DNA of 50,828 nucleotides, taken from the NCBI GenBank assembly GCA_039649225.1, contig JBBWZU010000651.1:1-50828 (forward strand). Direction: 5' to 3'. The notes under the pieces are model-generated. The model was not told the DNA's origin. It saw nothing but the letters and a program-made list of their open reading frames with translations, and did not search any database. How positions within the stretch are numbered: the first letter of the stretch is position 1; the number at the start of each line of letters is the position of its first letter. Positions 5,070-50,395 of the stretch are shown piece by piece. The translations under genes were made by a program, and so were the position numbers. Origin of the DNA: Hyphomicrobiales bacterium (lineage in GTDB: Bacteria > Pseudomonadota > Alphaproteobacteria > Rhizobiales > Xanthobacteraceae).

Positions 5070-5083
5070 TTGACGGCTGTCAA
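5070..5083. promoter_or_regulatory. FixK/FNR-type box TTGA-N6-TCAA (ttgacggctgtcaa)
   Basis: Perfect palindromic half-sites, intergenic, centred about 64 bp upstream of ATG 5013. Confidence 0.65.
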
Positions 5084-5367
5084 CGCGATCTGGTTTGGCC
5101 GGTTGGTAGGAGCCGCGTGTCGGGTCGCGGTTTCGCTCCGTAGAAAAATTTGTCGATTGCGACGTTTGTGTCGCGCCTTGCTCGCGGCCCGATGCCGGCG
5201 CGCAACCCCGTAGGACGCAGGACGACCGACGTTCAACACAGAGTGGAGATTTCCATGCTTCAGCTCGTGGCGATCGGATGGCGGTTGCAGGCGGATCCAT
5301 CCGCGAAAGAGGCTTTCGCCATGAGGACTGACATTGGTCCCAGCCTTCGCGCTTCCGCCTGCTGAAT

Positions 5368-6141
5368 TCATCGTGCGGCGCGGCCGCCGATTTCGTTGGG
5401 GTCGAGTTCCTGGCTCTCATGTTCCAGATGCAGATAACTGATGTTGAACATCGCGACTTCCTTCAGCCGCTCGAGGTCCGGAATAGTCAGTTCCTTTCCG
5501 CGTAGGACGATGAGATTTTGACTCCGCAATTCCCGCAGCGTCCGGTTCACATGCACCGTCGACAGGCCGGTCGCCTCTCCAAGATCGCTTTGCAGCAAAG
5601 GGAATTCGCAACGGTTCCGACGCGTTCGACCGATGACGTCCAATTTGATGAAAAGTTCGCAGAACAGGTGCGATATGCGCTCCAGCGCGGTTCGCTGACC
5701 AACGTTCAGCGTCCATTCGCGCTGGACGGCCATCGCGACAAGCGTATCCCACCAGAAGGCTTGCGCGATGCGAGGATGCTGAGAGGTCACATGTTCAAAC
5801 TTGTCCCGCGTGATCTCGGCATACGTAAGCGGTGTCAGCGCTGCGATTGTGTGATCCATTTCCCGCAGAATATAGATATTCAGCTCGCACAGATCGCCCG
5901 GAAGAAAGAATGAGAGGATTTGTCGCCGCCCATCTTCGAGCATTTTGGTGCGGCACGCCCATCCGGACAGGATCACCTTGAGCGTCTCAGGATTGTCGCC
6001 CTCACGCGCGACGTCCTCTCTGCCGCCGATCTTCTGAATTCTCTCTTGAACCAACTTGTCGAGCGCGCGCTCGTCCTCCGCAGACAGCCGAACGAATTTT
6101 TGCAGCTTCCGGATCAGAGGGGTCTCGGCTCCCATGTCCAC
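5368..6141 (-). CDS. Crp/Fnr family transcriptional regulator
   Basis: cNMP-binding-like beta-roll plus a C-terminal HTH (GLSTVHVNRTLRELR). There is no N-terminal Cys cluster, and the recognition helix is not the E..SR type. Confidence 0.85.
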   Translation of the reverse strand: MDMGAETPLIRKLQKFVRLSAEDERALDKLVQERIQKIGGREDVAREGDNPETLKVILSGWACRTKMLEDGRRQILSFFLPGDLCELNIYILREMDHTIAALTPLTYAEITRDKFEHVTSQHPRIAQAFWWDTLVAMAVQREWTLNVGQRTALERISHLFCELFIKLDVIGRTRRNRCEFPLLQSDLGEATGLSTVHVNRTLRELRSQNLIVLRGKELTIPDLERLKEVAMFNISYLHLEHESQELDPNEIGGRAAR

Positions 6142-6297
6142 ACCTCACACTGCCGCCTGCTCCACGCACCAAGCCAGCCAACATCTCACATGAAAGTCCC
6201 TATACTCTCGCGGAGAGACCCGCAGGCGGAGCCAGCCCCTTACGGCCCTTCTTGTGACGTATTCTGACCTTGGAGCGAAATCCGAGGCGAGTGTGTC

Positions 6298-6486
6298 TCA
6301 GATTGTTTGAGCAAAATGGCGCTCATCAGAATCACGCAGGCAGCGGCGGCGCCGCGATGACAAGGTTTTTATGTTGCTCTGGTGGAATCTGATCTTCTCC
6401 CGCTCAGAGATTGCTGGCAAAAGCTGGATCGGACATGAACCAGCGACAAAACGCAGATAGCCCTTCCAATAGGCACGTGGAGGCAT
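6298..6486 (-). pseudogene. ku: Truncated Ku (NHEJ end-binding protein), N-terminal about 50 aa only
   Basis: MPPRAYWKGYLRFVAGSCPIQLLPAISEREKIRFHQSNIKT matches the conserved Ku N-terminus (RA.W.G.I.F.....P....A......IRFHQ). The frame stops after 62 aa, whereas full-length bacterial Ku is several-fold longer. Confidence 0.55.
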
Positions 6487-6519
6487 TGGGCACTCCATTC
6501 GCGGATTGCCTAATCGAGT

Positions 6520-7087: not shown

Positions 7088-7101
7088 TTGATCACCGTCA
7101 A
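7088..7101. promoter_or_regulatory. FixK/FNR-type box TTGA-N6-TCAA (ttgatcaccgtcaa)
   Basis: Perfect half-sites, intergenic, centred about 126 bp upstream of ATG 6969. Confidence 0.55.
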
Positions 7102-9610: not shown

Positions 9611-9611
9611 G

Positions 9612-9893
9612 TCAGTGCGCCCTTTCCGCCGGCGCCGCGAACTCCGACAGCAGCGCGCGTATCGTCCGGCGCAGTCCATGCATTTGATCGATCAGATCGA
9701 GGATGATAGGCACGGCTTCCTTGTTCACACCCATACCCTGCAGGTCGCGGATCAACTGAGCACGGGCCACGTCGATCTCGGAAAATGAATCGTCCGTTGC
9801 GCCATGCTCCGGCATGAGCCAGCCGGCCTCGATCCATGCATGGAGGACCTCCGTCCTGAGATGCGCGGCGATCAGGAATTCACCCGTCTTCAT
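9612..9893 (-). CDS. cbpM: Chaperone-modulatory protein CbpM-like
   Basis: 93 aa immediately downstream of the cbpA-type gene (stop 9896, ATG 9893). MerR-like fold typical of CbpM. Confidence 0.65.
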   Translation of the reverse strand: MKTGEFLIAAHLRTEVLHAWIEAGWLMPEHGATDDSFSEIDVARAQLIRDLQGMGVNKEAVPIILDLIDQMHGLRRTIRALLSEFAAPAERAH

Positions 9894-9895
9894 GG

Positions 9896-10810
9896 TCAAG
9901 CCCCCATGGCGCGGCGCTGATTGCCGCTGTAATTGCTGGACTTGGCTGAAGCCCACTGCCCGATCAGCGTCTCGAGCTCCGGGTCGCGCTTCTCGGGAAG
10001 CATGATCTTGAGCGTGACATACTCATCTCCCGAGGTGCCGTTCGGGCGCGGAACGCCGCGACCTTTCAGCCGCAGTACAGTCCCGGTGTTGGACCATTTC
10101 GGCACCGTCATGGTGACTGTGCCGGTCGGCGTCGGCACGATCACTTTGCCGCCGAGCACTGCGTCGCGCAGCGGAATCGGCAGTTCGACGTGGATATCGT
10201 CGTCCTTGCGGCGGAAGAGGGGGTGCGGACGAACCTTGATCTCGATCAGCGCATCGCCCGGCGGGCCGCCACCCAGGCCGGGCCGGCCTTTGCCGCGCAG
10301 CCGCAACACGGTGCCGTCGCGCGAGCCCGGCGGAATGGTGACGTCGAGCGCAGAGCCGTCAGGCAGCGTGATCTGCTTCTTGCCGCCGTTGATTGCCTCG
10401 AGGAAATCAAGTTCGAGCTGGTAATGCGCGTCCGGTCCACGCATGCGAAAGCTGCCGCCACGGCCCTGCCGGCCGAATATGTCCGACAGGATATCTTCGC
10501 CGGCGAAATCTGCGAAGCCGGCATCGCTGGAATACTGAGAATCACCGTCTGCAAAATCCCGGTAGTAACGCTGCCGCGGTCGCTCCTGACCGGAGGCGTC
10601 GATCTCGCCGCGATCGAAGCGGGCGCGCTTGTCGGAGTCGCTCAGCAGATCATAGGCAGCGGAGACGTCCTTGAACTTCTCCTCGGCCTGCTTGTTGCCG
10701 GGATTGAGATCCGGGTGCAGCTTCTTCGCAAGCTTGCGGTACGCTTTCTGAATGTCTCCTGGCGAGGCGTCTTTCTTGACGCTCAACGTGGTGTAGGGGT
10801 CGGCGGCCAT
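9896..10810 (-). CDS. cbpA: DnaJ-family co-chaperone of the CbpA type (J domain and C-terminal domains, no zinc finger)
   Basis: J domain with HPD (KKLHPDLNPGN). There are no CxxCxGxG repeats, and DnaJ C-terminal beta-domains are present. Confidence 0.85.
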   Translation of the reverse strand: MAADPYTTLSVKKDASPGDIQKAYRKLAKKLHPDLNPGNKQAEEKFKDVSAAYDLLSDSDKRARFDRGEIDASGQERPRQRYYRDFADGDSQYSSDAGFADFAGEDILSDIFGRQGRGGSFRMRGPDAHYQLELDFLEAINGGKKQITLPDGSALDVTIPPGSRDGTVLRLRGKGRPGLGGGPPGDALIEIKVRPHPLFRRKDDDIHVELPIPLRDAVLGGKVIVPTPTGTVTMTVPKWSNTGTVLRLKGRGVPRPNGTSGDEYVTLKIMLPEKRDPELETLIGQWASAKSSNYSGNQRRAMGA

Positions 10811-10822
10811 GATTTCACCTGA

Positions 10823-11389
10823 TCACGGCTGTGCGCTGAGTTGCTGCGTGTTATCGTCAGATGCTGGCGCTTCCGACCGTCGTTTCACAACGGCGACACG
10901 TGCGGGGCGAAGCAGCCGGTCATGGATCATGTAGCCGTCCTCCATCACCTCGGCGACAGTTCCCGGCTCGCGCTTCGGATCGTCGATCTCCATCACCGCC
11001 TCGTGCAGCGCGGGGTCGAATGGCGCGCCAAGGGCCTCGATCTTGCGGACATCGAACCGCTCGAGGGCCTGCGTCAGCATCCGCTCGGTCGACCGCACGC
11101 CTTCCAGCAGTGCCGCATCCTCGACTGATTTGACTGGATTGCGCTCGGCCGTATCGATTGCGCGACGCAGATTGTCGACGACGCTCAGCATCTCGCGCGC
11201 AAAATTGGCGATCGCGTATTGCCGCATTTCATCGAGCGAGCGCTCAGTACGCCGGCGCGTATTCTCGGCGTCCGCCAGCGCCCGCATCAGCCGGTCGCGC
11301 AGCGACTGGTTCTCGGCCAGCAAGGTCGCGGGATCGACCGCTTCCGTCGCAATGCGCTCGTCTTCAGCGTGGTGCACGCCTTGCGCCAT
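10823..11389 (-). CDS. grpE: Nucleotide exchange factor GrpE
   Basis: 188 aa from ATG 11389. GrpE signatures RALADAENTRRR and GYMIHDRLLRPARVAV. Confidence 0.85.
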   Translation of the reverse strand: MAQGVHHAEDERIATEAVDPATLLAENQSLRDRLMRALADAENTRRRTERSLDEMRQYAIANFAREMLSVVDNLRRAIDTAERNPVKSVEDAALLEGVRSTERMLTQALERFDVRKIEALGAPFDPALHEAVMEIDDPKREPGTVAEVMEDGYMIHDRLLRPARVAVVKRRSEAPASDDNTQQLSAQP

Positions 11390-11405
11390 GTTCGACCTCG
11401 TCCAT

Positions 11406-13991: not shown

Positions 13992-14045
13992 CGCTCATCT
14001 CCTCCAGGCGTTCCATGACCCGTGGACTGCGGCCGCAGATCCCCG

Positions 14046-17408: not shown

Positions 17409-17422
17409 ATGACAGCCATCAA
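17409..17422. promoter_or_regulatory. Degenerate FixK-type box (atgacagccatcaa, 1 mismatch)
   Basis: Centred about 66 bp upstream of BON ATG 17349. Seven of the 8 fixed bases match. Confidence 0.3.
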
Positions 17423-22340: not shown

Positions 22341-22354
22341 CTGACGACAATCAA
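22341..22354. promoter_or_regulatory. Degenerate FixK-type box (ctgacgacaatcaa, 1 mismatch)
   Basis: Lies between the USP stop (22390) and the PRC-barrel gene start. Seven of the 8 fixed bases match. Confidence 0.3.
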
Positions 22355-27670: not shown

Positions 27671-27684
27671 TTGATGACTGTCAA
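27671..27684. promoter_or_regulatory. FixK/FNR-type box TTGA-N6-TCAA (ttgatgactgtcaa)
   Basis: Perfect half-sites in the divergent intergenic region. Centred about 87 bp upstream of prx ATG 27591 and about 236 bp upstream of ATG 27914. Confidence 0.65.
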
Positions 27685-27913
27685 AGTCACAAGCTTGTTT
27701 GGAGGTGCGCTGGGGCCCAACATCTTGGGCATTTCATGCGCCGTCACGGAAGTCGATTCAGCAAACGGACAAATCAGCCGAAGGTTTCTTACGCAAATTT
27801 ACGCTACGTGTATTTGCGAAATTCCTTCGAGGTGCGTGCGGCGCGATCCTGCATCCGACGGCGATCCCCCGCCGTGTCCATCTGGCGATCTGTTTCCGCA
27901 GAGAGGTGCTGTC

Positions 27914-28666
27914 ATGAACATAAGGAATGCTTTGACGACCACAGAAAACCCGGCTGGCCAAGCGAATGCCAAAACACCCTCACCCCAATCTCATTTGAAA
28001 AACCTCGATTCCCTCGCCACGGTCGTCCCGTGTCGCCGCGGGCAGGAAATCTGCGGCCAAGGCCGCCCCGCCGAGACATGGTATTGCGTCCTGTCGGGCG
28101 CGGCGCGGCGTTACGTCATCAGGCTCGATGGCCGGCGCCAGATCGTCGATCTGTTGCTGCCCGGGGACTGTTTCGGCTTTTCCGCCGGCGGCGACTATGA
28201 TTTCGCGGTCGAAGCGGTGACGGACGGAACAGTCGTCGCAGGTTACCCGCGGCGGCGCGCCGAGATGCTGGCGGATTCCGATCCGCGCGTCTCACGGGAG
28301 ATCCGCCAGGCTGCCTTTGAAGCGCTCTCGCGGCTGCAATCCCAGCTTCTTATTGTCGGCCGGATCACCGCGCTGGAGAAGGTTGGCTCGTTTATTCTCG
28401 AAATGGCAGCGCGCCTGTCGCGCGCGAGCAGCAGAAGGGTCGCGTTGCCGGTCTCGCGCTACGACATCGCGGATTATCTTGCAGTCTCCGTCGAGACCGT
28501 CAGCCGCTCACTCACCGATCTCAAGCATCGCGGCGTCATCCGCATGTCGGGGACGCGCACACTCGAGATCATGGATCGCGATGCGCTCGAGGATGGAGAG
28601 TCGCTCGCTCATTTGGCGCCGGCCCAAAACGCGGGGCGTTATCATGACACAGCCCAGCTACGCTAA
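27914..28666 (+). CDS. FixK-like Crp/Fnr family transcriptional regulator
   Basis: ATG 27914 has GAGAGG upstream. The HTH YDIADYLAVSVETVSRSLTDLKHRGVI carries the E..SR recognition motif of the FNR/FixK class. There is no N-terminal Fe-S cysteine cluster. Confidence 0.8.
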   Translation: MNIRNALTTTENPAGQANAKTPSPQSHLKNLDSLATVVPCRRGQEICGQGRPAETWYCVLSGAARRYVIRLDGRRQIVDLLLPGDCFGFSAGGDYDFAVEAVTDGTVVAGYPRRRAEMLADSDPRVSREIRQAAFEALSRLQSQLLIVGRITALEKVGSFILEMAARLSRASSRRVALPVSRYDIADYLAVSVETVSRSLTDLKHRGVIRMSGTRTLEIMDRDALEDGESLAHLAPAQNAGRYHDTAQLR

Positions 28667-29369
28667 GGACGCGTTCGATCTCATCGACAGGCTCGATCGG
28701 CTCTCCGACACCAATGCGGTGATGGATGCTATGCACCGAGCCGTCGCCGGTTACGGCTTTGAGACGTTGCTGCTCACTGGTCGGCCAAACCCGGAGCAGC
28801 GTTTCGACAATCTTGCGCTGGTCGGGCGCTGGCCGGCCGAGTGGTTCAAGATTTACAATGAAAGACGATATATTCATGTCGATCCTGTCGTCCGCCATTT
28901 GCGGCGCTCGGTAAAGCCATTCGCGTGGACCGACGCGCGCTATGACCCGGAGGCTGAACCGCGTGCCGCCGAATTGATGCAGTTGCGGGCCGACTTCGGG
29001 TTCGGGCGTGCGCTCGTCGTCCCGATTCCGGGCCCGGCCGGCAGCACCGCCGGCATATCCATGATCGGGCGCGGCCCAGACCTCACCGTGCAGAGCCGCC
29101 CGACAATTCACCTGATGGCCCTGTACGCTTTCGACCGTGCAGCCAGCTTGCGTGTGACGCCTCACCCCAAGCCATTCCTGACGGCGCGCGAGCGTGAGGT
29201 GCTCAGCTGGGTTGCGGCGGGAAAATCCGCCTGGGATATCGGCGAGGAGCTCAATATCGCAAAGCGAACAGTTGACGCGTATGCGCAAACGGCAACGCGC
29301 AAGCTCGGTGCCGCCACCCGGACCCAAGCCGTCGCGCTCGCGATCCGCGGCCGCTTCATTTCGGTCTGA
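28644..29369 (+). CDS. LuxR-family regulator with an N-terminal autoinducer-binding-like domain (LuxR solo in this window)
   Basis: C-terminal HTH TAREREVLSWVAAGKSAWDIGEELNIAKRTVDAY. Overlaps the FixK-like gene by 23 nt. No luxI-type gene is present in the window. Confidence 0.75.
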   Translation: MTQPSYAKDAFDLIDRLDRLSDTNAVMDAMHRAVAGYGFETLLLTGRPNPEQRFDNLALVGRWPAEWFKIYNERRYIHVDPVVRHLRRSVKPFAWTDARYDPEAEPRAAELMQLRADFGFGRALVVPIPGPAGSTAGISMIGRGPDLTVQSRPTIHLMALYAFDRAASLRVTPHPKPFLTAREREVLSWVAAGKSAWDIGEELNIAKRTVDAYAQTATRKLGAATRTQAVALAIRGRFISV

Positions 29370-29479: not shown

Positions 29480-30106
29480 TCAGCTTTGCGAACTCTCGGG
29501 GGCAAACCGTGCCATGACGGCGAGGCGCACCGCTTCGCCCAATTGTCTGACTCCGAGGCGGTCCATCATGCGTGCCCGATGGACCTCGATGGTCCGCACG
29601 CTCAAGCCGAGGTCAAAGGCAATGATCTTGTTAGACCGACCGGCCACCAGGGCATCGAGAACTTCGCGCTCGCGCGGGCTGAGCGCGGCGATCCGCTGCG
29701 CCGCCTCCTCGGCCTCCGGAAGGCGGTCGGACAGCAGTGTCCGCGTGAACGCATCTTCGATGGCGGCGAAGAGAGTCGTATCGTCGAAAGGTTTCTCGAT
29801 GAAATCGACGGCTCCAGCCTTCATTGCCTGCACGGCGCTCTGAACGTCGCCCTGGCCAGTTATGATGATCACCGGGAGGGCGATGCCCAGATCATTCATG
29901 CGACGTTGTAACTCAAGCCCGTCCATATCGGGAATTCTGATATCCAGCAGTACGCAACCGGGCGCCAGGTCCGGCGCGACATTCAGGAACGCCGCCGGTG
30001 TTTCGAACGAGACGGCGCGAAAGCCGGCCGCATCAAGCAGTTGTTCGAGAGAGCGGCGAACGGCCGCGTCGTCATCCAGAACGTAGACCGTGCGCTCAAT
30101 CGGCAC
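29480..30106 (-). CDS. FixJ/NarL-type response regulator
   Basis: Receiver domain (VLDDD...LLDIRIPDMDG...K) plus LuxR-type HTH (SPREREVLDALVAGRSNKIIAFDLGLSVRTIEVHR). GTG start at 30106 overlaps the kinase stop. Confidence 0.85.
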   Translation of the reverse strand: MPIERTVYVLDDDAAVRRSLEQLLDAAGFRAVSFETPAAFLNVAPDLAPGCVLLDIRIPDMDGLELQRRMNDLGIALPVIIITGQGDVQSAVQAMKAGAVDFIEKPFDDTTLFAAIEDAFTRTLLSDRLPEAEEAAQRIAALSPREREVLDALVAGRSNKIIAFDLGLSVRTIEVHRARMMDRLGVRQLGEAVRLAVMARFAPESSQS

Positions 30107-31823
30107 GGTTCACCTCATCGCTCCAAGCGGTCAGGGTGAAACGGAAAATCGCGCCGCCATCCGGATTGCCTTCCACGTGGATTTTTCCGCCATGCGCTTC
30201 GATGATCGAGCGGGATATGGAAAGTCCAAGCCCCATTCCCTTGCGCTTGCCGGTTACGAATGGCTCGAACAGGTGCTCAGCGATATGCTTTTCGAGCCCC
30301 GCTCCGCTATCCGCGATGGAGATTTCAACAATCTCCGCGTCGAGCAACGCCGTGGTCACTATGATCTCGCGGCGCGGCGTGCCCACCATCGCCTCCAGGG
30401 CGTTGTGAATCACGTTGACGATCACCTGCTGAACCTGGATTCGATTGGCGAACGCACTGACGGCTCCCGGTTCGAATTGGAATTGCAGGTCGACGCCAAG
30501 TGAATTCGAGCCCGTCAGCGCAAGCGCACACGCTTCCTCGATCAGCGGTTTTAGTTTCTCAATGCGCTTCTCGGTTTTGCCGCGGGTGATGAATTCACGC
30601 AGCCGTCGGATCACCTGTCCGCCGCGAAGCGCCTGGCCTGCAGCCTCGTTCAGTATCTCCGGTACTTTGGCCATCTTGTCATTTGCGCCGCTCGCCAGAA
30701 GGCGGCGTGCCGCGTGCACCGAATTGGCGATCGCGGCCAGAGGCTGATTCAGCTCGTGGGCGAGCGCACCTGCCAAATGTCCGGCGGCGGTGAGACGCGT
30801 TGCGTGCCACAATTCCAGCTGTGCCTCCTGCAGCCGGGCATCGGTACGCGCGCTCTCTGCCATTTCGGTAACCAGTCTGCCATTGGCGCGTGCGAGCTCG
30901 ATTGTTCGTTCGGATACCCGTTGCTCAAGCGACTGGTTGAGGCGACGCAACTCGGCCTCTGCGGCCTTTTGACTTGTCAAATCGCGGGCGACGGTCGCCA
31001 TGTTCATCGGCTTCCCCGTACGTGGTTGGTCGATGCGAAACCAATCGACGAGAAATGGTATCGCCGCGCCGGTGTTGAAATGACGAAAGCCGACTTCGCC
31101 GACCCAGCGTCCGGATTGCAGTACGACGGGCAGAATCTCCTCGCGCGCCCGAAGACGGTCATCGGGGGCGATAAAATCGAAAATATTCAACCGGGCAGCC
31201 GCCTCGATGGAATCAAGGCCGAGGAGCGTCAGTCCCGTCGGATTGAGGTATTGGAGATGCCCTTCGATGCCAGCGACCCCGACGAAATCGGAGGAACGTT
31301 CGATCAGCGTGGTGAAGCGCCGCGCTTCCACCTCGACGCGCCAGCGCCGCAGCGCGATAGTCGCGTCGTTTGCGCCGATTCCGAGCAGCAGACGTTGTGC
31401 CTCGGATGGAAAATCATGCTGGCTCGCCCCACCAACGACTATCGCATCGCCGCCGAGCCCGATTGGGGCGACCGCAATGCGCATCGTTCCAGCACCGACC
31501 GGATTGGGAATCGACAAAGTTTGCTCGGTTGCGGGCCGCGGGAGTGCTTCGTGCAGAGCTGCCCGAATGGTCTCAGGCGCGTTCTTCTTCAATCCGTTTC
31601 CCACATGGGTGATTTCAATGTTCGGTTCGGCATGCGAACCAGGAAGTGCGACATAGATAAAATCTACCCCGAGCATGGTAATCAGCGCCGCTGCCACGCT
31701 TTCGGCGATCTGCGGTGGATCGAAATCTTTCCACATGGCCGGTAGCGCCGAAAGCGTCATCAGATCGCGGATATAACGCCGAAGCTCCTGTGGGTCGGAA
31801 AAAAACTGTTCTACCGATGGCAT
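30096..31823 (-). CDS. Cytoplasmic sensor histidine kinase (N-terminal sensory region, PAS, HisKA, HATPase; FixL-family architecture)
   Basis: H-box AHELNQPL, ATPase N/G boxes (VIHNALEAM, DSGAG, GMGLGLSISRSI), a PAS-like segment, and no TM helices. Confidence 0.85.
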   Translation of the reverse strand: MPSVEQFFSDPQELRRYIRDLMTLSALPAMWKDFDPPQIAESVAAALITMLGVDFIYVALPGSHAEPNIEITHVGNGLKKNAPETIRAALHEALPRPATEQTLSIPNPVGAGTMRIAVAPIGLGGDAIVVGGASQHDFPSEAQRLLLGIGANDATIALRRWRVEVEARRFTTLIERSSDFVGVAGIEGHLQYLNPTGLTLLGLDSIEAAARLNIFDFIAPDDRLRAREEILPVVLQSGRWVGEVGFRHFNTGAAIPFLVDWFRIDQPRTGKPMNMATVARDLTSQKAAEAELRRLNQSLEQRVSERTIELARANGRLVTEMAESARTDARLQEAQLELWHATRLTAAGHLAGALAHELNQPLAAIANSVHAARRLLASGANDKMAKVPEILNEAAGQALRGGQVIRRLREFITRGKTEKRIEKLKPLIEEACALALTGSNSLGVDLQFQFEPGAVSAFANRIQVQQVIVNVIHNALEAMVGTPRREIIVTTALLDAEIVEISIADSGAGLEKHIAEHLFEPFVTGKRKGMGLGLSISRSIIEAHGGKIHVEGNPDGGAIFRFTLTAWSDEVNRAD

Positions 31824-31858: not shown

Positions 31859-32185
31859 TCAGTGCGTCCGCGCACCTCGACCACTTAGCTCACGCAGAAA
31901 TTCGTCGGGCGCATTTTCCCAGGGCCGCACTTCGAGCCGGCCACCTTGTTCGATACTTCCGCTGCCCAGGCCGGTATCTTCCAACCGCCGAAGCTGTTCG
32001 GCCCGCTGATGCTTATCGAGAATGTAGACGGCCCGGTCGGCCGAATCGATGCCTTGCTTCATGAAGGGCAGCATCAGGCTGTCCTCGTCATCGCGGCTAT
32101 CGAAGAACGCCCAGACATGGCAATGGCAATTCACCATCGCTCGCGCCCGATTTGCAATTCTGCTTTGCTCGACATGTTCTGCCAT
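31859..32185 (-). CDS. Short MEDS-like sensory-domain protein (tentative)
   Basis: 108 aa. HVWAFFDSRDDEDSLMLPFMKQGIDSADRAVYILDKHQRAEQLRRLEDTG resembles the N-terminal half of MEDS domains (H..FY...E....F...G...G.....). Sits directly upstream of the kinase. Confidence 0.4.
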   Translation of the reverse strand: MAEHVEQSRIANRARAMVNCHCHVWAFFDSRDDEDSLMLPFMKQGIDSADRAVYILDKHQRAEQLRRLEDTGLGSGSIEQGGRLEVRPWENAPDEFLRELSGRGARTH

Positions 32186-32261: not shown

Positions 32262-32275
32262 TTGAAACAGCTCAA
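32262..32275. promoter_or_regulatory. FixK/FNR-type box TTGA-N6-TCAA (ttgaaacagctcaa)
   Basis: Perfect half-sites, centred about 84 bp upstream of ATG 32185, the head of the MEDS-kinase-regulator string. Confidence 0.6.
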
Positions 32276-33356: not shown

Positions 33357-33370
33357 TTGACAGACGTCAA
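33357..33370. promoter_or_regulatory. FixK/FNR-type box TTGA-N6-TCAA (ttgacagacgtcaa)
   Basis: Perfect half-sites, centred about 78 bp upstream of hdeD ATG 33286. Confidence 0.65.
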
Positions 33371-38281: not shown

Positions 38282-38295
38282 TTGATGGGCGTCAA
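38282..38295. promoter_or_regulatory. FixK/FNR-type box TTGA-N6-TCAA (ttgatgggcgtcaa)
   Basis: Perfect half-sites in the divergent region between the FDH operon and the SRPBCC gene. This is the first of two boxes 34 bp apart. Confidence 0.6.
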
Positions 38296-38315: not shown

Positions 38316-38329
38316 TTGACATCCGTCAA
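38316..38329. promoter_or_regulatory. FixK/FNR-type box TTGA-N6-TCAA (ttgacatccgtcaa)
   Basis: Perfect half-sites, centred about 98 bp upstream of GTG 38420. Confidence 0.6.
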
Positions 38330-40755: not shown

Positions 40756-40769
40756 TTGACGACGATCAA
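40756..40769. promoter_or_regulatory. FixK/FNR-type box TTGA-N6-TCAA (ttgacgacgatcaa)
   Basis: Perfect half-sites, centred about 58 bp upstream of USP ATG 40705. The 14-mer is identical to the box at 47667. Confidence 0.65.
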
Positions 40770-40798: not shown

Positions 40799-40812
40799 TT
40801 GATGCCCGTCAA
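40799..40812. promoter_or_regulatory. FixK/FNR-type box TTGA-N6-TCAA (ttgatgcccgtcaa)
   Basis: Perfect half-sites, centred about 72 bp upstream of ATG 40877. Confidence 0.65.
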
Positions 40813-42122: not shown

Positions 42123-42136
42123 TTGACGCCCATCAA
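42123..42136. promoter_or_regulatory. FixK/FNR-type box TTGA-N6-TCAA (ttgacgcccatcaa)
   Basis: Perfect half-sites, centred about 111 bp upstream of ATG 42240. It overlaps an 11-nt direct repeat, tgacgcccatc, at 42124-42134 and 42137-42147. Confidence 0.55.
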
Positions 42137-43553: not shown

Positions 43554-43567
43554 TTGACAGCGGTCAA
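43554..43567. promoter_or_regulatory. FixK/FNR-type box TTGA-N6-TCAA (ttgacagcggtcaa)
   Basis: Perfect half-sites, centred about 64 bp upstream of ATG 43624. Confidence 0.65.
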
Positions 43568-45465: not shown

Positions 45466-45479
45466 TTGACGATCGTCAA
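45466..45479. promoter_or_regulatory. FixK/FNR-type box TTGA-N6-TCAA (ttgacgatcgtcaa)
   Basis: Fully palindromic 14-mer, centred about 64 bp upstream of trxC ATG 45409. Confidence 0.65.
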
Positions 45480-45793: not shown

Positions 45794-45883
45794 CGTACTT
45801 ACTCCTTCATGAGACAAGCCTGCCTTCGAAACGAACGCCACGCTGCGCGGCATGTTCCTGATTCACGCGAGGTGAAGCGAGAA

Positions 45884-45897
45884 TTGACGAACGCCAA
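45884..45897. promoter_or_regulatory. Degenerate FixK-type box (ttgacgaacgccaa, 1 mismatch)
   Basis: Centred about 98 bp upstream of ATG 45793. Seven of the 8 fixed bases match. Confidence 0.3.
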
Positions 45898-47666: not shown

Positions 47667-47680
47667 TTGACGACGATCAA
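47667..47680. promoter_or_regulatory. FixK/FNR-type box TTGA-N6-TCAA (ttgacgacgatcaa)
   Basis: Perfect half-sites, centred about 78 bp upstream of ATG 47596. Confidence 0.65.
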
Positions 47681-47717
47681 CGTATGTTCGCGTTGTCGCG
47701 GGAGCCTGGCGCGGAGT

Positions 47718-50300
47718 TCACTCTATCTTCCGCGGCGGACCCATAAGCACGGGCTGGAACAGCACCGCGGCGAACATTGTGCACAGCAATGCCAAGGCCA
47801 TCAGCTTGCCCATGCTCGACATGCCTGGATAGTCGGATGTCCACATGCTTCCGAACGCGGCCGCGTTGGTCAGCGCGCTGAATATCACGGCGCGCGTCAG
47901 CGTCGATTGGAGTAATCCGGTTTTACCCGCCCGCCAGGCCATGATGTAGTAGATCTTGAACGCTACGCCGACGCCAAGTAGCAGCGGCAGTGCAATGACA
48001 TTGGCGAAATTGAGCGCAAGTCCGCTCAAGACGCAAATTTCCAGCGTGACCGCGGCGGCCAAAAGCAACGGCACGAGTGTCAGCAGCACATCGGTAATGC
48101 GCCGCAGCGCGAGCCACAGCACCAATGCGATGACGCCAAGCGCGATCCCGCCGGCCGAGAAGAATGCATTGAGAACGGTCCGGCCGGCTTCATAGTAGCT
48201 GATCGCGGCACCGGTCGCAGCGGGCTCGGCCGCCAGCACTGCGGCGGCAAAGCGCCGCAGCACGTTGGCATCGCTCGGATCGCCACGCGGCACGATTTCC
48301 ACGCGCGCTTGCCCGTCCGGCGCTTTCCAATCCCGCACCAATTCCGGCGGAAGCGTCGCGACCGTGATCGGCTGCGGCTCCAGGCTGCTTCGAAGTCGAG
48401 CAAGATTATAGACAAGCGAGGGGACGACAGCGGCCTCCGCCTTGCCGCGCATTGCGGGATCCGATCGAGCCAATTCTCGAAGCAGGCCAGCCACACGGCG
48501 CGCCGCATCGGCGCCCGGACCCTTCGAGCCGCCGGTCGCCGTGGAAAGCCGCTCGGCCGCCGACTGGATCGCAGCGATGGAATCCTGATCGGATGGCGGA
48601 GGTTGCTTGTTTTTCTGATCGAGGACAGGCTTGAGAACGTCCGCCGCGTGCCGAATAACGGCGCGCTTTTGCTCCTGCTCGTCCGGTATGAAGTTGCTCA
48701 GTGTCAGCGTGCGCAAGACCTCGGGGAGGGCGGCCAGTCGCTTTGCGATGGCATCGGCTTCGTCGAGCGCGGAAGCCGCTACCTCGGCGTTGTTCAATCC
48801 TGCTTCAGGGTCCTGTCGAAGCTCGCGATAGGTCGCGACCGATGGTGTGTTGGGGTTGTTCAGGTTGACCGGATTGAAATCGAACGGCACGCGCAACAAA
48901 AGTGGCGCGCCGATCAGAACCACGATGATCGTTCCGGCGACGACTGCGATCCGATGCCGCTGCAGAAAGTCGTCGAGCGGCGCCAGTTTGGCAAACCCGA
49001 CAGGGCGCGATTCGCCCGGCGGGCTCAATATCGTCAGCATGGCCGGGACCAGCGTGATGCTGCAGAAAAAAGCAATCAGCATGCCGAAGCCGGCGATCTG
49101 TCCCAGCTCCGACAGGCCGCTATAGCTGGTCGGCACAAACGAAAAAAACGCCGCCGCGGTGGCTGCCGCGGCCAGCGCGAGGGGAACACCCGCTTTGCGG
49201 GCCGTGCTTCTGAGCGCTTCATGCAGGTCGTGATGTTCGTGGCGCTCGGCCCGATAACGGACGCTGAACTGGATTGCGAAATCGACGCCGAGCCCGACGA
49301 ACAACATGAAGAAGGCGACCGAGATCAGATTGAATGCTCCGACCATCGCAAGGCCGAGCGCCGCGGTCGCCGCGAGCCCAACCATCAGGCTGAAGAACAC
49401 CGCCGCAACCAGACGCCAGGAATGCAGTGCCAGCCACAACAGGATCAGCACGCCGCCAACCGCGATCAAAGTATCGCGTAGCGCGCTTTTGCGGATGACC
49501 GCGAACTGATCGTCGTCCATCGGCACCCGTCCGGTGATATCGACGCGCGCGTTGAACCTTTCGCCTAAGCTCAGATCGATCGCGGCGCCGCGAATGGCGT
49601 TTGTTGATTTTCGCCCCGGCTCCAGGGCGGAAAAATCCAAGACAGGCTGAATCTCGATGAAGTGCCGCAATTGTTCATTGCTCGCAGGCCGCCCCTGGAC
49701 AAGTTCCTGCCAGGAGAATGTCGCCGGTCTGTCCGCAAGGACATCGGTCAAGGTCGTGCCTGCGAGCGTGAGAGGCCATACCAGTTGATCCGGGCCGACT
49801 TGCTCCGACTGCACGCCGGAGGCAACCAGCGAGAGCGTTCTCATCACGCCGCGCAGGCTCGGGTCGGCGGCAAGAACCCTGATGAGGGGTTGGGCCTGTA
49901 CCAGTCCGGCGGTCGTTTTTTCGACGTCGGGAAGGGGCTGAAACAAAATGCCATTACGTTCGAAGAACGCGCCGCTGTCGGGTTGCGTCACGGCACGAAA
50001 CAGGTCACGGTTTTTCGCAAGCTGCCGCGCGAGCTCATCGGTTGCCTGTTCGGCAAATTCCGGCGTCGGCGCTCTGACGACCGCCAGCGTGCCGTATTGA
50101 GGAAACGCATCGAAGAAGGCGAGCTGACGCCGGTGCCACGGAACGTCCCGCGAAATAAGAGACTCAACGTCTGTCGTGATCGAGAAACGTGCAGCGTCAT
50201 ACACGGTGGCGGCGAGGGCGAGCACCATGCCGACGATGATGACGGGCCAGGCATGACGCGCACAGAAATCTACAATTCGCACTGTCGCCGGTTGCAACAT
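47718..50300 (-). CDS. MMPL/RND-superfamily transporter, HpnN-like (hopanoid-transporter family, tentative)
   Basis: 860 aa with two 6-TM bundles and two large periplasmic loops. The N-terminus (…IVDFCARHAWPVIIVGMVLALAATVYDAARFSITTDVESLIS…) resembles HpnN-type proteins as I recall them. No hopanoid synthesis genes are in the window. Confidence 0.7.
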   Translation of the reverse strand: MLQPATVRIVDFCARHAWPVIIVGMVLALAATVYDAARFSITTDVESLISRDVPWHRRQLAFFDAFPQYGTLAVVRAPTPEFAEQATDELARQLAKNRDLFRAVTQPDSGAFFERNGILFQPLPDVEKTTAGLVQAQPLIRVLAADPSLRGVMRTLSLVASGVQSEQVGPDQLVWPLTLAGTTLTDVLADRPATFSWQELVQGRPASNEQLRHFIEIQPVLDFSALEPGRKSTNAIRGAAIDLSLGERFNARVDITGRVPMDDDQFAVIRKSALRDTLIAVGGVLILLWLALHSWRLVAAVFFSLMVGLAATAALGLAMVGAFNLISVAFFMLFVGLGVDFAIQFSVRYRAERHEHHDLHEALRSTARKAGVPLALAAAATAAAFFSFVPTSYSGLSELGQIAGFGMLIAFFCSITLVPAMLTILSPPGESRPVGFAKLAPLDDFLQRHRIAVVAGTIIVVLIGAPLLLRVPFDFNPVNLNNPNTPSVATYRELRQDPEAGLNNAEVAASALDEADAIAKRLAALPEVLRTLTLSNFIPDEQEQKRAVIRHAADVLKPVLDQKNKQPPPSDQDSIAAIQSAAERLSTATGGSKGPGADAARRVAGLLRELARSDPAMRGKAEAAVVPSLVYNLARLRSSLEPQPITVATLPPELVRDWKAPDGQARVEIVPRGDPSDANVLRRFAAAVLAAEPAATGAAISYYEAGRTVLNAFFSAGGIALGVIALVLWLALRRITDVLLTLVPLLLAAAVTLEICVLSGLALNFANVIALPLLLGVGVAFKIYYIMAWRAGKTGLLQSTLTRAVIFSALTNAAAFGSMWTSDYPGMSSMGKLMALALLCTMFAAVLFQPVLMGPPRKIE

Positions 50301-50381
50301 AGCGGCCTATCCACATCGCTCGCGTGAGGCGGAAAAAGTGGGTCGGGTACGGCCAGTTATCTTGCGAATGTCCAACGCGCA

Positions 50382-50395
50382 TTGACGTCCGTCAA
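50382..50395. promoter_or_regulatory. FixK/FNR-type box TTGA-N6-TCAA (ttgacgtccgtcaa)
   Basis: Perfect half-sites in a divergent intergenic region. Centred about 89 bp upstream of ATG 50300 and about 166 bp upstream of ATG 50554. Confidence 0.6.

What the first reader, a model, noticed from the sequence alone, without database searches (positions are those of the whole stretch)
5070..50395. Fourteen perfect TTGA-N6-TCAA (FixK/FNR-type) palindromes, all intergenic, link about 45 kb of stress genes into one putative low-oxygen regulon
Perfect copies begin at 5070, 7088, 27671, 32262, 33357, 38282, 38316, 40756, 40799, 42123, 43554, 45466, 47667 and 50382.

Each lies between genes. Each is centred about 58-130 bp upstream of a start codon; several sit at about 64, 78 or 84-89 bp. 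Twelve of the fourteen fit TTGAY-N4-RTCAA; 32262 and 40756/47667 have one half each off this extension. Three one-mismatch copies (17409, 22341, 45884) sit at similar distances from other operon heads.

Eight bases are fixed and the motif is its own reverse complement. A 50.8-kb sequence with uniform base composition would therefore give under one hit (50828/65536). A GC-rich sequence would give fewer, because six of the eight fixed bases are A or T.

In a by-eye pass I found no perfect copy inside a called CDS.

The window also encodes a regulator whose recognition helix carries the E..SR motif of the FNR/FixK class (27914-28666), and a FixL/FixJ-like pair (29480-31823). Signal input, regulator and targets therefore appear to be co-located.

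Many of the predicted targets have no known function: the baeRF-like gene, the small secreted Cys-rich proteins, the DUF1236 proteins, the PRC-barrel proteins and DUF2267.
Basis: partly seen in the sequence, partly recalled or inferred. Interest (0 to 1): 0.78.

Follow-up and report, generated by a model that had tools for sequence, protein, structure and literature searches.

The report
FixK-box regulon on a stress island
About fifty stress, chaperone, redox and dormancy genes of a soil alphaproteobacterium sit behind some 16 promoters that carry the same FNR/FixK-type DNA palindrome, next to a FixK-like regulator; the pattern is real and conserved, but it is a new example of a known kind of low-oxygen or persistence gene island, not a new mechanism.

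Summary
TTGA-N6-TCAA occurs 14 times against 0.5 expected, and all 14 copies lie in the 15% of the window that is non-coding.

The sites look like class II activator sites. In the direction of the gene, each box is followed by nGC, and a TAnnnT -10-like hexamer starts 23 bp after the box, which puts the box centre at about -41.5. The same geometry appears in 97 box-gene pairs from related genomes.

The island is conserved in Xanthobacteraceae MAGs, Afipia, Bradyrhizobium and others. Genes that head operons keep their box; genes inside operons have none.

The local regulator (27914-28666) belongs to the FixK group: its best solved-structure match is FixK2, it has an ETVSR recognition helix, and it has no Fe-S cysteines. 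It is a paralogue, not the FixK2 orthologue.

Its gene is preceded by a conserved TTACGTA-type repeat that resembles FixJ sites, and a FixJ-like response regulator lies next door. The partner kinase has a FixL-type kinase core, but its PAS domain lacks the haem-binding histidine. "Low oxygen" is therefore inferred, not shown.

The closest analogue is the 50-kb lxa locus of Burkholderia cenocepacia.

Verdict: a real, well-built regulon; a new member of a known kind.

The parts
5070..5083 (.). FixK/FNR box TTGACGGCTGTCAA. It lies 63.5 bp upstream of ORF160 (5013, minus strand), which is followed by a DJ-1/PfpI gene. Orientation is ambiguous because the nGC flank is on the plus side.
7088..7101 (-). 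Box upstream of DUF2267 (start 6969 in the JGI call, or 7026). TATAGT begins 23 bp after the box. The unit may continue into a 62-aa gene and the second Crp-family gene.
   Evidence: DUF2267 homologues keep the box in 2 of 2 cases
17409..17422 (-). One-mismatch box 66.5 bp upstream of the BON gene. It heads the run BON, Hsp20, DnaK, ClpB, GrpE, DnaJ/CbpA, MerR, rhomboid, SDH protease, PsiE (17349 down to 7437).
   Evidence: 19 of 50 BON homologues elsewhere carry a perfect box
22341..22354 (-). One-mismatch box, plausible only. It lies 88.5 bp upstream of a PRC-barrel gene that heads PRC, DUF5335, unknown, Zn-ADH, DUF1931, flavodoxin/WrbA, aldo-keto reductase.
   Evidence: its PWM score of 8.6 is no better than chance hits in coding sequence
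27671..27684 (-). Box 86.5 bp upstream of the redoxin gene (27591). It heads redoxin, DsbA, Hsp20-like, Lon, PRC, Usp. The nGC flank and TATCGT at +23 are on the minus side only.
   Evidence: 10 of 19 redoxin homologues keep the box
27790..27808 (+). Conserved direct repeats TACGCAAATTTACGCTACG (family consensus TTACGTAnTTTTACGnTAmG), 105-125 bp upstream of the FixK-like start codon. Candidate FixJ-type response-regulator site.
   Evidence: it resembles GTAMGTAG and GTACGTAG (PMC4999443, PMC13327599)
27914..28666 (+). FixK-group CRP/FNR regulator. Recognition helix VETVSR, no Fe-S cysteines, Ser at the position of FixK2 Cys183.
28644..29369 (+). LuxR-type regulator (autoinducer-binding domain plus GerE) that overlaps the 3' end of the FixK-like gene. 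Its role is unknown.
29480..30106 (-). FixJ-like response regulator (REC plus GerE HTH).
   Evidence: NF006900: 237 bits, cut-off 255
30096..31823 (-). Cytoplasmic histidine kinase with two PAS-like sensor domains and a FixL-type DHp/CA core. It has no haem-ligand histidine.
31859..32185 (-). Small MEDS-domain protein, the first gene of the kinase/regulator operon.
32262..32275 (-). Outlier box TTGAAACAGCTCAA, 83.5 bp upstream of the MEDS-kinase-regulator operon. The core is perfect but the extension is wrong on both halves, and the box is not conserved elsewhere. If functional it would give feedback on the cascade.
33357..33370 (-). Box 77.5 bp upstream of the DUF308/HdeD-like gene (33286).
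   Evidence: 9 of 22 homologues keep the box
38282..38295 (-). Box oriented leftward (nGC flank, TAGGAA at +23) towards the formate-dehydrogenase-like Mo-oxidoreductase, 4Fe-4S and cytochrome b operon (38112 or 38007 down to 33431). The leader is long.
38316..38329 (+). Box 97.5 bp upstream of the SRPBCC/polyketide-cyclase-like gene (38420). It stands back to back with box 38282.
40756..40769 (-). Box 57.5 bp upstream of Usp (40705), which is followed by a DJ-1/PfpI gene.
   Evidence: 5 of 10 Usp homologues keep the box
40799..40812 (+). Box 71.5 bp upstream of the baeRF gene, a distant Balon-family (ribosome hibernation factor) relative (40877-42073).
   Evidence: 4 of 4 homologues keep the box at 81-85 bp
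42123..42136 (+). Box 110.5 bp upstream of a secreted DUF1236-like gene (42240), followed by two unknown genes.
43554..43567 (+). Box 63.5 bp upstream of a small secreted Cys-rich protein (43624), followed by DUF1772 and an unknown gene.
   Evidence: the only homologue found keeps the box
45466..45479 (-). Box 63.5 bp upstream of thioredoxin 2 (45409).
45884..45897 (-). Doubtful one-mismatch box. The 94-aa gene downstream (45793) is more likely served by the EcfG-type promoter GGAAC-N16-CGTT at 45834-45858.
47667..47680 (-). Box 77.5 bp upstream of the DUF1236 protein (47596), which is followed by DUF1328.
50382..50395 (-). Box 88.5 bp upstream of the MMPL transporter (50300).

Best explanation
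The palindromes are operator sites for a dimeric activator of the FNR/FixK branch of the CRP family.

Shown from sequence and comparison: each box sits at the class II position, with its centre near -41.5. In the direction of the gene, the box is followed by nGC at about -33/-32, where the G coincides with the conserved G of a sigma-70 -35 hexamer. A TAnnnT -10 hexamer starts 23 bp after the box. About 16 such promoters drive some 50 genes. These comprise:
- a second DnaK/GrpE/DnaJ/ClpB/Hsp20/Lon set;
- thiol and redox repair genes (redoxin, DsbA, thioredoxin 2, DJ-1);
- universal stress proteins;
- BON, PRC and DUF308 envelope or stress proteins;
- a formate-dehydrogenase-like respiratory enzyme;
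- a distant relative of the Balon ribosome-hibernation factor.

Inferred: the activator is most likely the FixK-like protein encoded in the island. It has no oxygen-labile Fe-S cluster and no FixK2-type Cys183 switch, so its activity is probably set by how much of it is made. Its gene carries a conserved FixJ-type TACGTA repeat. The adjacent FixJ-like response regulator probably binds there after phosphorylation by the partner kinase, which has a FixL-type core.

Guessed by analogy: the signal is oxygen or energy limitation leading to growth arrest. The kinase lacks the FixL haem ligand, so the true signal is unknown.
For: - Enrichment and placement: 14 sites against 0.5 expected, all in the 15% of the window that is non-coding.
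- Promoter geometry in the window: the mean -10 score in the gene direction is 1.75, against -3.14 +/- 1.02 for random non-coding positions and -2.09 on the opposite side of the boxes. G at +2 occurs in 14 of 17 sites.
- The same geometry in 97 independent box-gene pairs from related loci: G at +2 in 80, C at +3 in 71, A at +24 in 56, T at +28 in 53. TAnnnT starts at +22 to +24 in 29 of them and at only 3 other places between +10 and +39.
- Conservation: 160 boxes in 967 kb around orthologous regulators, or 8.4 per 50.8 kb. Operon-head families keep the box (BON 19/50, redoxin 10/19, DUF308 9/22, baeRF 4/4, Usp 5/10). Nine families that are operon-internal in the window have none, and four others have one to four.
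- The island is syntenic in Afipia broomeae, Bradyrhizobium species and Xanthobacteraceae MAGs.
- Regulator: best solved-structure hit is FixK2, E 1.4e-36. The helix ETVSR matches FixK2's ETVSR, and E-T-V-[S/C]-R is kept in all 60 homologues. No cysteine is conserved.
- Cascade: the TTACGTA-type repeat occurs once per locus in 17 loci. Fourteen of the 15 from other genomes have it in the same place and on the same strand upstream of the regulator gene, and it matches published FixJ consensus sequences. The response regulator is FixJ-like and the kinase core is FixL-like.
- Precedent: the lxa locus. In B. diazoefficiens, USP, baeRF-like, DnaJ and Hsp20 genes are induced by microoxia, some as FixK2 targets. 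The predicted FixK core regulon contains Hsp20, Zn-ADH and FixLJ.
Against: - There are no expression, transcription-start or binding data for this organism.
- FNR, FixK and DNR proteins recognise almost the same site. A regulator encoded outside the window could be the true or a shared activator.
- Box 27671 is oriented away from the regulator gene, so autoregulation is not evident.
- The kinase lacks the haem histidine, and the island has no cbb3 oxidase, hemN or denitrification genes. Low oxygen is therefore not established.
- Afipia and B. rifense have the FixJ-type site but no adjacent kinase/regulator pair within 10 kb, so the local pair is not the only possible input.
- Site 32262 is atypical and is not conserved elsewhere. 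Sites 45884 and 22341 are weak.
- The related loci were fetched through the regulator, partly through the pattern YDIADYLA. Conservation of that stretch of the protein is therefore partly an artefact of how the loci were found.
Confidence: 0.75

Rival explanations
1. The boxes are real FNR/FixK-class sites, but the main activator is a different family member encoded outside the window, such as an Fe-S FNR/FnrN/AadR protein or the true FixK2 orthologue under a haem FixLJ. The local FixK-like protein would then be a secondary, redundant or modulating regulator.
For: FNR, FixK and DNR recognise nearly identical sites, and their regulons overlap in Bradyrhizobium and R. palustris. Bradyrhizobium carries both FixK2 and an orthologue of this paralogue. 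In B. diazoefficiens some comparable stress genes are FixK2 targets. Afipia and B. rifense have no adjacent kinase/regulator pair.
Against: Box density is about 17 times the expected level specifically around orthologues of this regulator, in many lineages. The regulator's recognition helix is invariant. In B. diazoefficiens the USP/baeRF-like/DnaJ cluster is strongly induced by microoxia, yet most of its genes are not listed as FixK2 targets.
Confidence: 0.2
2. The island is mainly a general-stress-response (PhyR/EcfG sigma factor) or heat-shock regulon. The palindromes would be a minor or coincidental overlay.
For: BON, PRC-barrel, DUF1236 and similar genes are typical EcfG targets in Alphaproteobacteria (my own knowledge). 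One intergenic GGAAC-N16-CGTT lies at 45834-45858, upstream of the 94-aa gene. A MerR (HspR-like) gene sits in the chaperone operon.
Against: There are only three GGAAC-N16/17-CGTT matches against 0.71 expected, and two of them are inside genes. In contrast, 14 perfect boxes stand at fixed promoter geometry. A sigma-70 -35 reading of TTGAC fails, because the -10 element would be 30 bp away rather than 17.
Confidence: 0.04
3. The boxes are repressor operators, or a chance or repeat-derived motif with no regulatory role.
For: Some FNR-family proteins repress when their site overlaps the promoter. Sites 40756 and 47667 share the same 14-mer.
Against: No shuffle reaches even 3 sites. Flanks of the two identical 14-mers are unrelated. 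The fixed spacing to a -10 element and a partial -35 G is that of class II activation. The boxes are conserved upstream of orthologous genes across families.
Confidence: 0.02

Closest known systems
Low-oxygen-activated (lxa) locus of Burkholderia cenocepacia J2315 (Sass et al. 2013, PMC3721108)
   Same: The lxa locus is a 50,722-bp cluster of 50 genes with a 4-bp inverted repeat spaced by 6 bp (TGA-N6-TCA, Anr/Fnr-like) at 17 intergenic points. It holds several USPs, an alpha-crystallin/Hsp20, a protease, alcohol dehydrogenase, electron-transfer and regulatory genes including CRP/FNR-type candidates. It is needed for anoxic persistence. The window has about 55 genes in 50.8 kb with 14 perfect and 2-3 near-perfect boxes.
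   Different: The host is a betaproteobacterium, and gene order and many genes differ. The lxa locus has no reported DnaK/ClpB/GrpE/DnaJ set, FixJ-type cascade or Balon-like gene. Orthology was not tested here. Induction by low oxygen is shown for lxa and is unknown for this window.
FixLJ-FixK2 cascade and regulon of Bradyrhizobium diazoefficiens, with the homologous FixLJ-FixK systems of R. palustris, S. meliloti and Caulobacter
   Same: The box is the same TTGA-N6-TCAA. The regulator lacks an Fe-S cluster and has an ETVSR helix. A FixJ-type site stands upstream of the regulator gene, and the kinase core and response regulator are of FixL/FixJ type. Targets include Hsp20, USP, Zn-ADH, DnaJ and baeRF-like genes.
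   Different: The regulator is a paralogue, 33-40% identical to FixK2, and Bradyrhizobium has both. It has Ser instead of the redox-sensitive Cys183. The kinase lacks the haem-binding histidine. No cbb3 oxidase, hemN or denitrification targets lie in the island. The targets are packed around the regulator rather than scattered.
DosR/DevR dormancy regulon of Mycobacterium tuberculosis
   Same: The functional theme matches: USPs, alpha-crystallin and a Balon-type factor (Rv2629, hypoxia-induced), under a two-component system with a LuxR/GerE-type response regulator.
   Different: The DNA motif is different and is bound directly by the response regulator. The sensors are haem-GAF proteins. There is no CRP-family intermediate. 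The comparison with DosR gene content rests partly on my own knowledge.
Anr regulon of Pseudomonas aeruginosa (Anr-dependent USPs)
   Same: An FNR-type box in front of universal stress protein genes that are needed for anaerobic energy-starvation survival (cited).
   Different: Anr is an Fe-S oxygen sensor. Its targets are scattered and are dominated by anaerobic respiration and fermentation genes.
Stress neighbourhoods of Balon-type ribosome hibernation factors (Helena-Bueno et al. 2024, PMC10901736)
   Same: Balon genes typically neighbour Hsp20, DnaK, DnaJ, HdeD and OsmY genes. Here the baeRF gene sits among Hsp20, DnaK, DnaJ, DUF308/HdeD and BON/OsmY-like genes.
   Different: The window protein is only a distant relative (NCBIfam 77 bits against a cut-off of 330; match to solved Balon structure 8RD8_B at E 0.0085). 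The cited passages of that paper mention no common FNR/FixK box.

Membership tests
FNR/FixK-type operator at a class II promoter | Palindrome TTGA-N6-TCAA (extended form TTGAY-N4-RTCAA) | tested here: met
   14 perfect sites against 0.5 expected. Thirteen of the 14 fit the extended form.
FNR/FixK-type operator at a class II promoter | Lies in promoter regions, not in genes | tested here: met
   All 14 are in the 14.9% non-coding DNA, P = 2.8e-12. They sit 57-126 bp upstream of start codons.
FNR/FixK-type operator at a class II promoter | Site centred near -41.5 relative to the transcription start | tested here: inconclusive
   A -10-like TAnnnT starts 23 bp after the box in the window and in 97 pairs from related loci. 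This implies a centre near -41.5, but no transcription start has been mapped.
FNR/FixK-type operator at a class II promoter | Bound by, and dependent on, an FNR/FixK-class protein | not testable with these tools
   Needs EMSA, ChIP or genetics.
FixK group of the CRP/FNR superfamily | cNMP-binding-like domain plus Crp-type HTH, with recognition helix E..SR | tested here: met
   Pfam domains. VETVSR aligns with FixK2 LETVSR. The helix is kept in all homologues.
FixK group of the CRP/FNR superfamily | Lacks one or more of the four FNR Fe-S cysteines (criterion of Dufour et al. 2010) | tested here: met
   No N-terminal Cys cluster. No cysteine is invariant across 28 homologues. The criterion is quoted.
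FixK group of the CRP/FNR superfamily | Reaches the curated FixK equivalog score, or is orthologous to FixK2 | tested here: not met
   NF050806 scores 139 bits against a cut-off of 300. Bradyrhizobium orthologues are 33-37% identical to FixK2. The protein has Ser at the FixK2 Cys183 position.
FixK group of the CRP/FNR superfamily | Gene transcribed under a FixJ-type response regulator | tested here: inconclusive
   A conserved TTACGTA-type repeat at 27790-27808 stands in the same place in 14 of the 15 matching loci from other genomes and resembles GTAMGTAG/GTACGTAG. Binding was not tested.
FixL oxygen sensor kinase | Haem-binding PAS domain with a proximal histidine on the F-alpha helix | tested here: not met
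   The F-alpha helix, residues 220-237 (PDDRLRAREEILPVVLQS), has no His. No His or Cys is invariant anywhere in the 320-residue sensor region, and none is nearly invariant in the first domain; the only nearly invariant one, His248, lies on a beta-strand of the PAS domain. The PAS domain aligns weakly with the non-haem PAS-A of FixL.
FixL oxygen sensor kinase | FixL-type DHp/CA kinase core and tandem PAS architecture | tested here: met
   Match to 4GCZ, a solved structure containing the FixL kinase module, E 7e-78 over residues 319-569. NF041777 E 1e-92, but only over profile positions 232-481, and 311 bits against a cut-off of 850. The top fold match is the FixL PAS-A/PAS-B pair, 8JS6, E 1e-10.
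FixJ response regulator | REC domain plus LuxR/GerE HTH, reaching the FixJ equivalog score | tested here: inconclusive
   The domains are present. NF006900 matches full length at 237 bits, just under the cut-off of 255.
lxa-type low-oxygen-activated locus | Cluster of about 50 kb and 50 genes with an FNR-like motif at many intergenic points, holding USPs and alpha-crystallin | tested here: met
   Window. Definition of lxa.
lxa-type low-oxygen-activated locus | Specific induction at low oxygen and a role in anoxic survival | not testable with these tools
   Needs expression and mutant data.
Balon ribosome hibernation factor (for the gene at 40877-42073) | aeRF1-like fold and family membership above the curated score | tested here: inconclusive
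   Pfam baeRF family 11, E 1e-38. NF052287 E 1e-21, but 77 bits against a cut-off of 330. Match to 8RD8_B (solved Balon structure) E 0.0085.
EcfG/PhyR general stress regulon | GGAAC-N16/17-CGTT promoters upstream of the genes | tested here: not met
   Three matches against 0.71 expected, and only one is intergenic (45834-45858).

The most novel reading that the evidence does not exclude
The window may represent an unrecognised, widely distributed dormancy module of soil Proteobacteria. A non-haem kinase with a FixL-type core (plus a MEDS protein) would sense something other than oxygen binding to haem, for example redox or energy state. It would act through a FixJ-like regulator on a FixK paralogue that is distinct from FixK2. 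That paralogue would switch on, from about 16 uniform class II promoters, a self-contained survival kit: a second DnaK/ClpB/Lon chaperone-protease set, thiol repair, USPs, envelope proteins and a Balon-type ribosome hibernation factor. This would be a Gram-negative counterpart of the DosR regulon with its own dedicated regulator lineage.
Probability: 0.3. Interest if true: 0.6.

Novelty: new member of a known kind. Interest (0 to 1): 0.4.

Why it matters
The window gives an unusually clean, self-contained regulon. It has one motif, one promoter geometry, about 16 promoters and about 50 genes, with the likely regulator and its upstream two-component input encoded in the same place.

The island is conserved in cultivable relatives: Afipia broomeae ATCC 49717, Bradyrhizobium rifense and Bradyrhizobium sp. 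WSM3983. The predictions can therefore be tested directly.

It attaches a regulatory context to families of unknown role (DUF2267, DUF1236, DUF5335, DUF1931, PRC-barrel, BON, small Cys-rich proteins). It also links a Balon-like hibernation factor and a second chaperone set to a FixK-type switch in soil Alphaproteobacteria.

It also shows that lxa-like persistence islands exist well outside Burkholderia.

Tried and rejected
- Source of the window. A megablast of 27-33 kb against plasmids found only a 377-bp, 76% match in a Bosea plasmid, so this is not a known plasmid. The closest genomes are Xanthobacteraceae MAGs, whose FixK-like protein is 70% identical.
- RNA genes. Rfam at gathering thresholds and tRNA scans found nothing in the window.
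- Gene calling. My first GC3-based gene caller chose the wrong strand in several places. I replaced it with a codon-usage model plus Pfam hits and JGI calls.
- Sigma-70 -35 reading of TTGAC. Rejected, because the -10 element lies 30 bp from the first half-site and both halves of each site are perfect.
- EcfG general-stress promoters. There is only one intergenic match.
- Haem sensing by the kinase. Sequence, a 28-sequence alignment, an AlphaFold model (pLDDT 88) and a fold search show tandem PAS-like domains but no haem-ligand histidine.
- An Fe-S or Cys183-type switch in the regulator. No cysteine is conserved.
- Second Crp-family protein (5368-6135). Its helix reads V..NR rather than E..SR, so it is unlikely to read this box.
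- An exact-sequence look-up of that protein with the GTG start failed. The JGI call is 255 aa.
- Inverted repeats near hsp20 and dnaK gave a hairpin. I did not search specifically for the HspR operator.
- The generic promoter/terminator scan of 1-8 kb found nothing above shuffle level.

Full report
**1. Observation**

One hundred dinucleotide-preserving shuffles give a mean of 0.50 and a maximum of 2.

I built a gene map from a codon-usage model, Pfam and NCBIfam scans and JGI gene calls on identical metagenome contigs. With that map, 85.1% of the window is coding, and all 14 sites lie in the remaining 7,594 bases. The composition of that DNA predicts 0.05 sites. The probability under uniform placement is 2.8e-12.

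Thirteen of the 14 sites fit TTGAY-N4-RTCAA. Only 32262 (TTGAAACAGCTCAA) deviates, and it deviates on both halves.

A PWM built from the 14 sites scores 13 of them at 20 or more. It then drops to 14 for 17409 and 45884, to 10.4 for 32262, and into the range of chance coding hits (11 or less) for 22341. One-mismatch matches total 19, against about 11.6 expected.

**2. Gene content**

From 3.9 to 27.6 kb every gene is on the minus strand. The transcription units, each with its box, are:

| Box | First gene and operon |
|---|---|
| 5070 | ORF160, DJ-1/PfpI |
| 7088 | DUF2267, a 62-aa gene, possibly the second Crp-family gene |
| 17409 (one mismatch) | BON, Hsp20, DnaK, ClpB, GrpE, DnaJ/CbpA, MerR, rhomboid, SDH-type protease, PsiE |
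| 22341 (one mismatch) | PRC-barrel, DUF5335, unknown, Zn-ADH, DUF1931, flavodoxin/WrbA, aldo-keto reductase |
| 27671 | redoxin, DsbA, Hsp20-like, Lon, PRC-barrel, tandem Usp |
| none oriented towards it | FixK-like gene and a LuxR-type gene (plus strand) |
| 32262 | MEDS, kinase, response regulator |
| 33357 | DUF308/HdeD-like |
| 38282 | formate-dehydrogenase-like molybdoenzyme, 4Fe-4S protein, cytochrome b |
| 38316 | SRPBCC |
| 40756 | Usp, DJ-1 |
| 40799 | baeRF |
| 42123 | DUF1236-like and two unknown genes |
| 43554 | small Cys-rich secreted protein, DUF1772, unknown |
| 45466 | thioredoxin 2 |
| 45884 (one mismatch) | a 94-aa protein |
| 47667 | DUF1236, DUF1328 |
| 50382 | MMPL transporter |

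About 50 of the roughly 53 genes between 3.9 and 50.4 kb therefore lie behind a box.

**3. Promoter geometry**

I oriented each site towards its gene. The flank shows G at +2 (14 of 17 sites) and C at +3 (13 of 17) after the box. A -10-like hexamer starts at +22 to +24; examples are TATAGT, TATCGT, TAGGTT, TAACGT and TATCTG.

The mean -10 score is 1.75 in the gene direction. It is -2.09 on the opposite side and -3.14 +/- 1.02 for random non-coding positions. None of 2,000 resamplings reached the observed value.

Related genomes give an independent test. In 97 box-gene pairs, G is at +2 in 80, C at +3 in 71, A at +24 in 56 and T at +28 in 53. TAnnnT starts at +22 to +24 in 29 pairs and at only 3 other places between +10 and +39.

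A -10 hexamer beginning 22 bp after a 14-bp box puts the box centre at -41.5, the class II position for FNR-type activators. The conserved G falls at about -33, where the G of a sigma-70 -35 hexamer would be. That last point is inference.

This asymmetry also resolves orientation:
- Box 38282 points left, to the molybdoenzyme operon. It stands back to back with 38316, 34 bp away.
- Boxes 40756 and 40799 form a second divergent pair, 43 bp apart.
- Box 27671 points to the redoxin operon, not to the regulator gene.
- Box 5070 remains ambiguous.

**4. Conservation**

A search of representative genomes with the FixK-like protein returned 57 loci. They come from Xanthobacteraceae MAGs (66-70% identity), Pseudolabrys, Afipia broomeae, Bradyrhizobium, Tardiphaga, Stellaceae, Rhizomicrobium, Acetobacteraceae and Steroidobacteraceae.

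These loci hold 160 perfect boxes in 967 kb, or 8.4 per 50.8 kb. Families that head operons in the window keep a perfect box 20-260 bp upstream elsewhere:

| Family | Homologues with a perfect box |
|---|---|
| BON | 19 of 50 |
| redoxin | 10 of 19 |
| DUF308 | 9 of 22 |
| baeRF | 4 of 4 |
| DUF2267 | 2 of 2 |
| Usp | 5 of 10 |
| Hsp20-like | 5 of 9 |

Nine families that are operon-internal in the window (PsiE, SDH protease, rhomboid, MerR, GrpE, ClpB, aldo-keto reductase, Lon and the kinase) have none; a few others, such as DnaK and Hsp20, have one to four.

Many BON homologues carry a perfect box upstream, several at 61-66 bp. This supports the one-mismatch site 17409, which sits at 66.5 bp.

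The core order is syntenic in Afipia and Bradyrhizobium: MerR, DnaJ, GrpE, DnaK, Hsp20, BON; unknown, PRC; DsbA, redoxin; box; regulator; sometimes the response regulator and kinase; DUF308; box; Lon, Hsp20-like; box; Usp.

**5. The regulator**

The protein at 27914-28666 has cNMP-binding and Crp-type HTH domains. Its best solved-structure relative is FixK2 (4I2O, E 1.4e-36), ahead of FNR (E 2e-16). Its recognition helix VETVSRSL aligns with FixK2's LETVSRAL.

It has no N-terminal cysteine cluster, and no cysteine is invariant among 28 homologues. Under the criterion quoted, this places it in the FixK group. The residue aligned with FixK2 Cys183 is an invariant Ser. The crystallised FixK2 is, to my knowledge, a C183S variant, which would explain the Ser in the 4I2O sequence.

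It is not the FixK2 orthologue. It scores 139 bits against a FixK equivalog cut-off of 300. Its Bradyrhizobium orthologues are only 33-37% identical to FixK2. JGI's automatic annotation names close homologues "CRP/FNR family nitrogen fixation transcriptional regulator".

A second Crp-family protein (5368-6135) has V..NR in place of E..SR and probably reads a different site.

**6. The upstream cascade**

The protein at 29480-30106 matches the FixJ equivalog over its full length, at 237 bits against a cut-off of 255.

The kinase core, residues 317-569, is strongly FixL-like (4GCZ, E 7e-78; NF041777, E 1e-92, partial). An AlphaFold model of residues 1-320 (pLDDT 88) shows two PAS-like domains. 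Its best fold matches are the PAS-A/PAS-B pair of B. japonicum FixL, at E 1e-10 and 13-14% identity.

The haem ligand is missing, however. The F-alpha helix of the second PAS domain (residues 220-237) has no histidine. The alignment shows no invariant His or Cys anywhere in the sensor region, and none nearly invariant in the first domain; the one nearly invariant histidine, His248, sits on a beta-strand of the PAS domain. By sequence, the domain aligns only weakly, and with the non-haem PAS-A. Some homologues fuse this sensor directly to a GerE HTH domain.

Aligning the region upstream of the regulator gene across eight genomes revealed one island of conservation in otherwise unalignable DNA. 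Its consensus is TTACGTAnTTTTACGnTA(C/A)G, at window 27790-27808. The pattern TACG-N7-ACG-N-TA-N-G occurs once per locus in 17 loci. Fourteen of the 15 that come from other genomes have it at the same distance and on the same strand upstream of the regulator gene.

It resembles the published FixJ consensus GTAMGTAG and the GTACGTAG in the R. palustris fixK promoter. About 27 bp downstream is a looser match to the CSNAATWT element reported at -33 of FixJ-dependent promoters.

The claim that the input is oxygen is not.

**7. Comparison with what is known**

The closest analogue is the lxa locus of B. cenocepacia. It spans 50,722 bp and 50 genes, carries a TGA-N6-TCA motif at 17 intergenic points, holds six USPs and an alpha-crystallin, is induced up to 240-fold at low oxygen, and is needed for anoxic survival.

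In Alphaproteobacteria, the predicted FixK core regulon already includes FixLJ, Hsp20 and Zn-ADH. In B. diazoefficiens a cluster of USP, host-attachment (baeRF-type), CBS, nitroreductase and DnaJ genes (bll4644-blr4659) is induced 14- to 52-fold by microoxia, and some of these genes are FixK2 targets.

The baeRF protein hits the Balon-type hibernation-factor family (NF052287, E 1e-21, below the cut-off) and the solved Balon chain 8RD8_B (E 0.0085). Balon genes are reported next to Hsp20, DnaK, DnaJ, HdeD and OsmY genes, and the mycobacterial homologue Rv2629 is induced by hypoxia.

The gene content also recalls the DosR dormancy regulon, and, from memory and untested, the heat-resistance/protein-quality-control islands of Gammaproteobacteria (sHsp, Clp ATPase, HdeD, PsiE, thioredoxin).

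**8. Verdict**

The regulon is real, and its architecture is now well defined. The motif, the regulator class, the cascade type and the island arrangement all have precedents.

The new elements are these:
- this lineage;
- a FixK paralogue dedicated to a stress island;
- a FixL-type kinase without the haem ligand;
- a full second chaperone set and a Balon-like factor among the targets.

I rate it a new member of a known kind, with interest 0.4.

Noticed in passing
window 13209-13211 (minus strand): The island's ClpB paralogue is interrupted by an in-frame TAA where ClpB proteins have a conserved Lys. The sequence reads [18 protein letters not shown], and reading resumes in the same frame. This is a nonsense mutation, a pseudogene or a sequencing error.
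   Followed up: partly
window 27790-27808 (plus strand); same position in L004-L006, L008, L009, L015-L017, L019, L020, L022-L024, L058: A conserved TTACGTA-type direct repeat lies upstream of the FixK-like gene and resembles FixJ binding sites. About 27 bp downstream is a loosely conserved CCAAATTT-like element.
   Followed up: yes
window 45834-45858 (minus strand): The only intergenic match to the EcfG general-stress promoter GGAAC-N16-CGTT lies about 40 bp upstream of a 94-aa gene (start 45793), just after the doubtful one-mismatch box 45884.
   Followed up: partly
window 5368-6135 (minus strand): A second Crp-family regulator has V..NR instead of E..SR in its recognition helix. Its target site and role are unknown. 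It may be co-transcribed with DUF2267 from box 7088.
   Followed up: partly
window 9612-15959 (minus strand): The chaperone operon ends with a MerR-family gene after dnaK, grpE and dnaJ. This is the arrangement known for HspR-controlled operons of Actinobacteria (my own knowledge). I did not search for an HspR-type operator.
   Followed up: no
window 16027-16070 and 16595-16626: A 14-bp-stem hairpin lies between hsp20 and dnaK. A perfect 16-bp tandem duplication (gcaagaaagcaacgga, two copies) lies just upstream of the hsp20 start and includes the ribosome-binding region.
   Followed up: no
window 28644-29369 (plus strand): A LuxR-type autoinducer-binding regulator overlaps the end of the FixK-like gene by 23 bp. 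Its best NCBIfam model is the PA1136 family, described as regulators found near HchA (DJ-1/PfpI family). The island holds two DJ-1/PfpI genes. No homologue was found next to the regulator in other genomes.
   Followed up: no
window 1670-3990: A lower-GC stretch (57%) has no confident genes and no boxes. The only plausible product is a Ser/Thr/Gly-rich secreted protein within 2394-2855 (minus strand). The island's left border appears to lie here, after a sulfite-oxidase-like gene and a cytochrome c gene (18-1669).
   Followed up: no
L015-L020, L022-L024, L030, L031, L036, L055 (Afipia, Bradyrhizobium, Tardiphaga and other relatives): In these orthologues the recognition helix reads ETVCR, with a cysteine where FNR and FixK have the DNA-contacting serine. 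This could make DNA binding sensitive to redox state.
   Followed up: no
proteins P0001, P0007, P0034, P0036, P0052: Some homologues of the kinase's sensor region are fused directly to a GerE HTH domain instead of a kinase. These are one-component versions of the same sensor.
   Followed up: no
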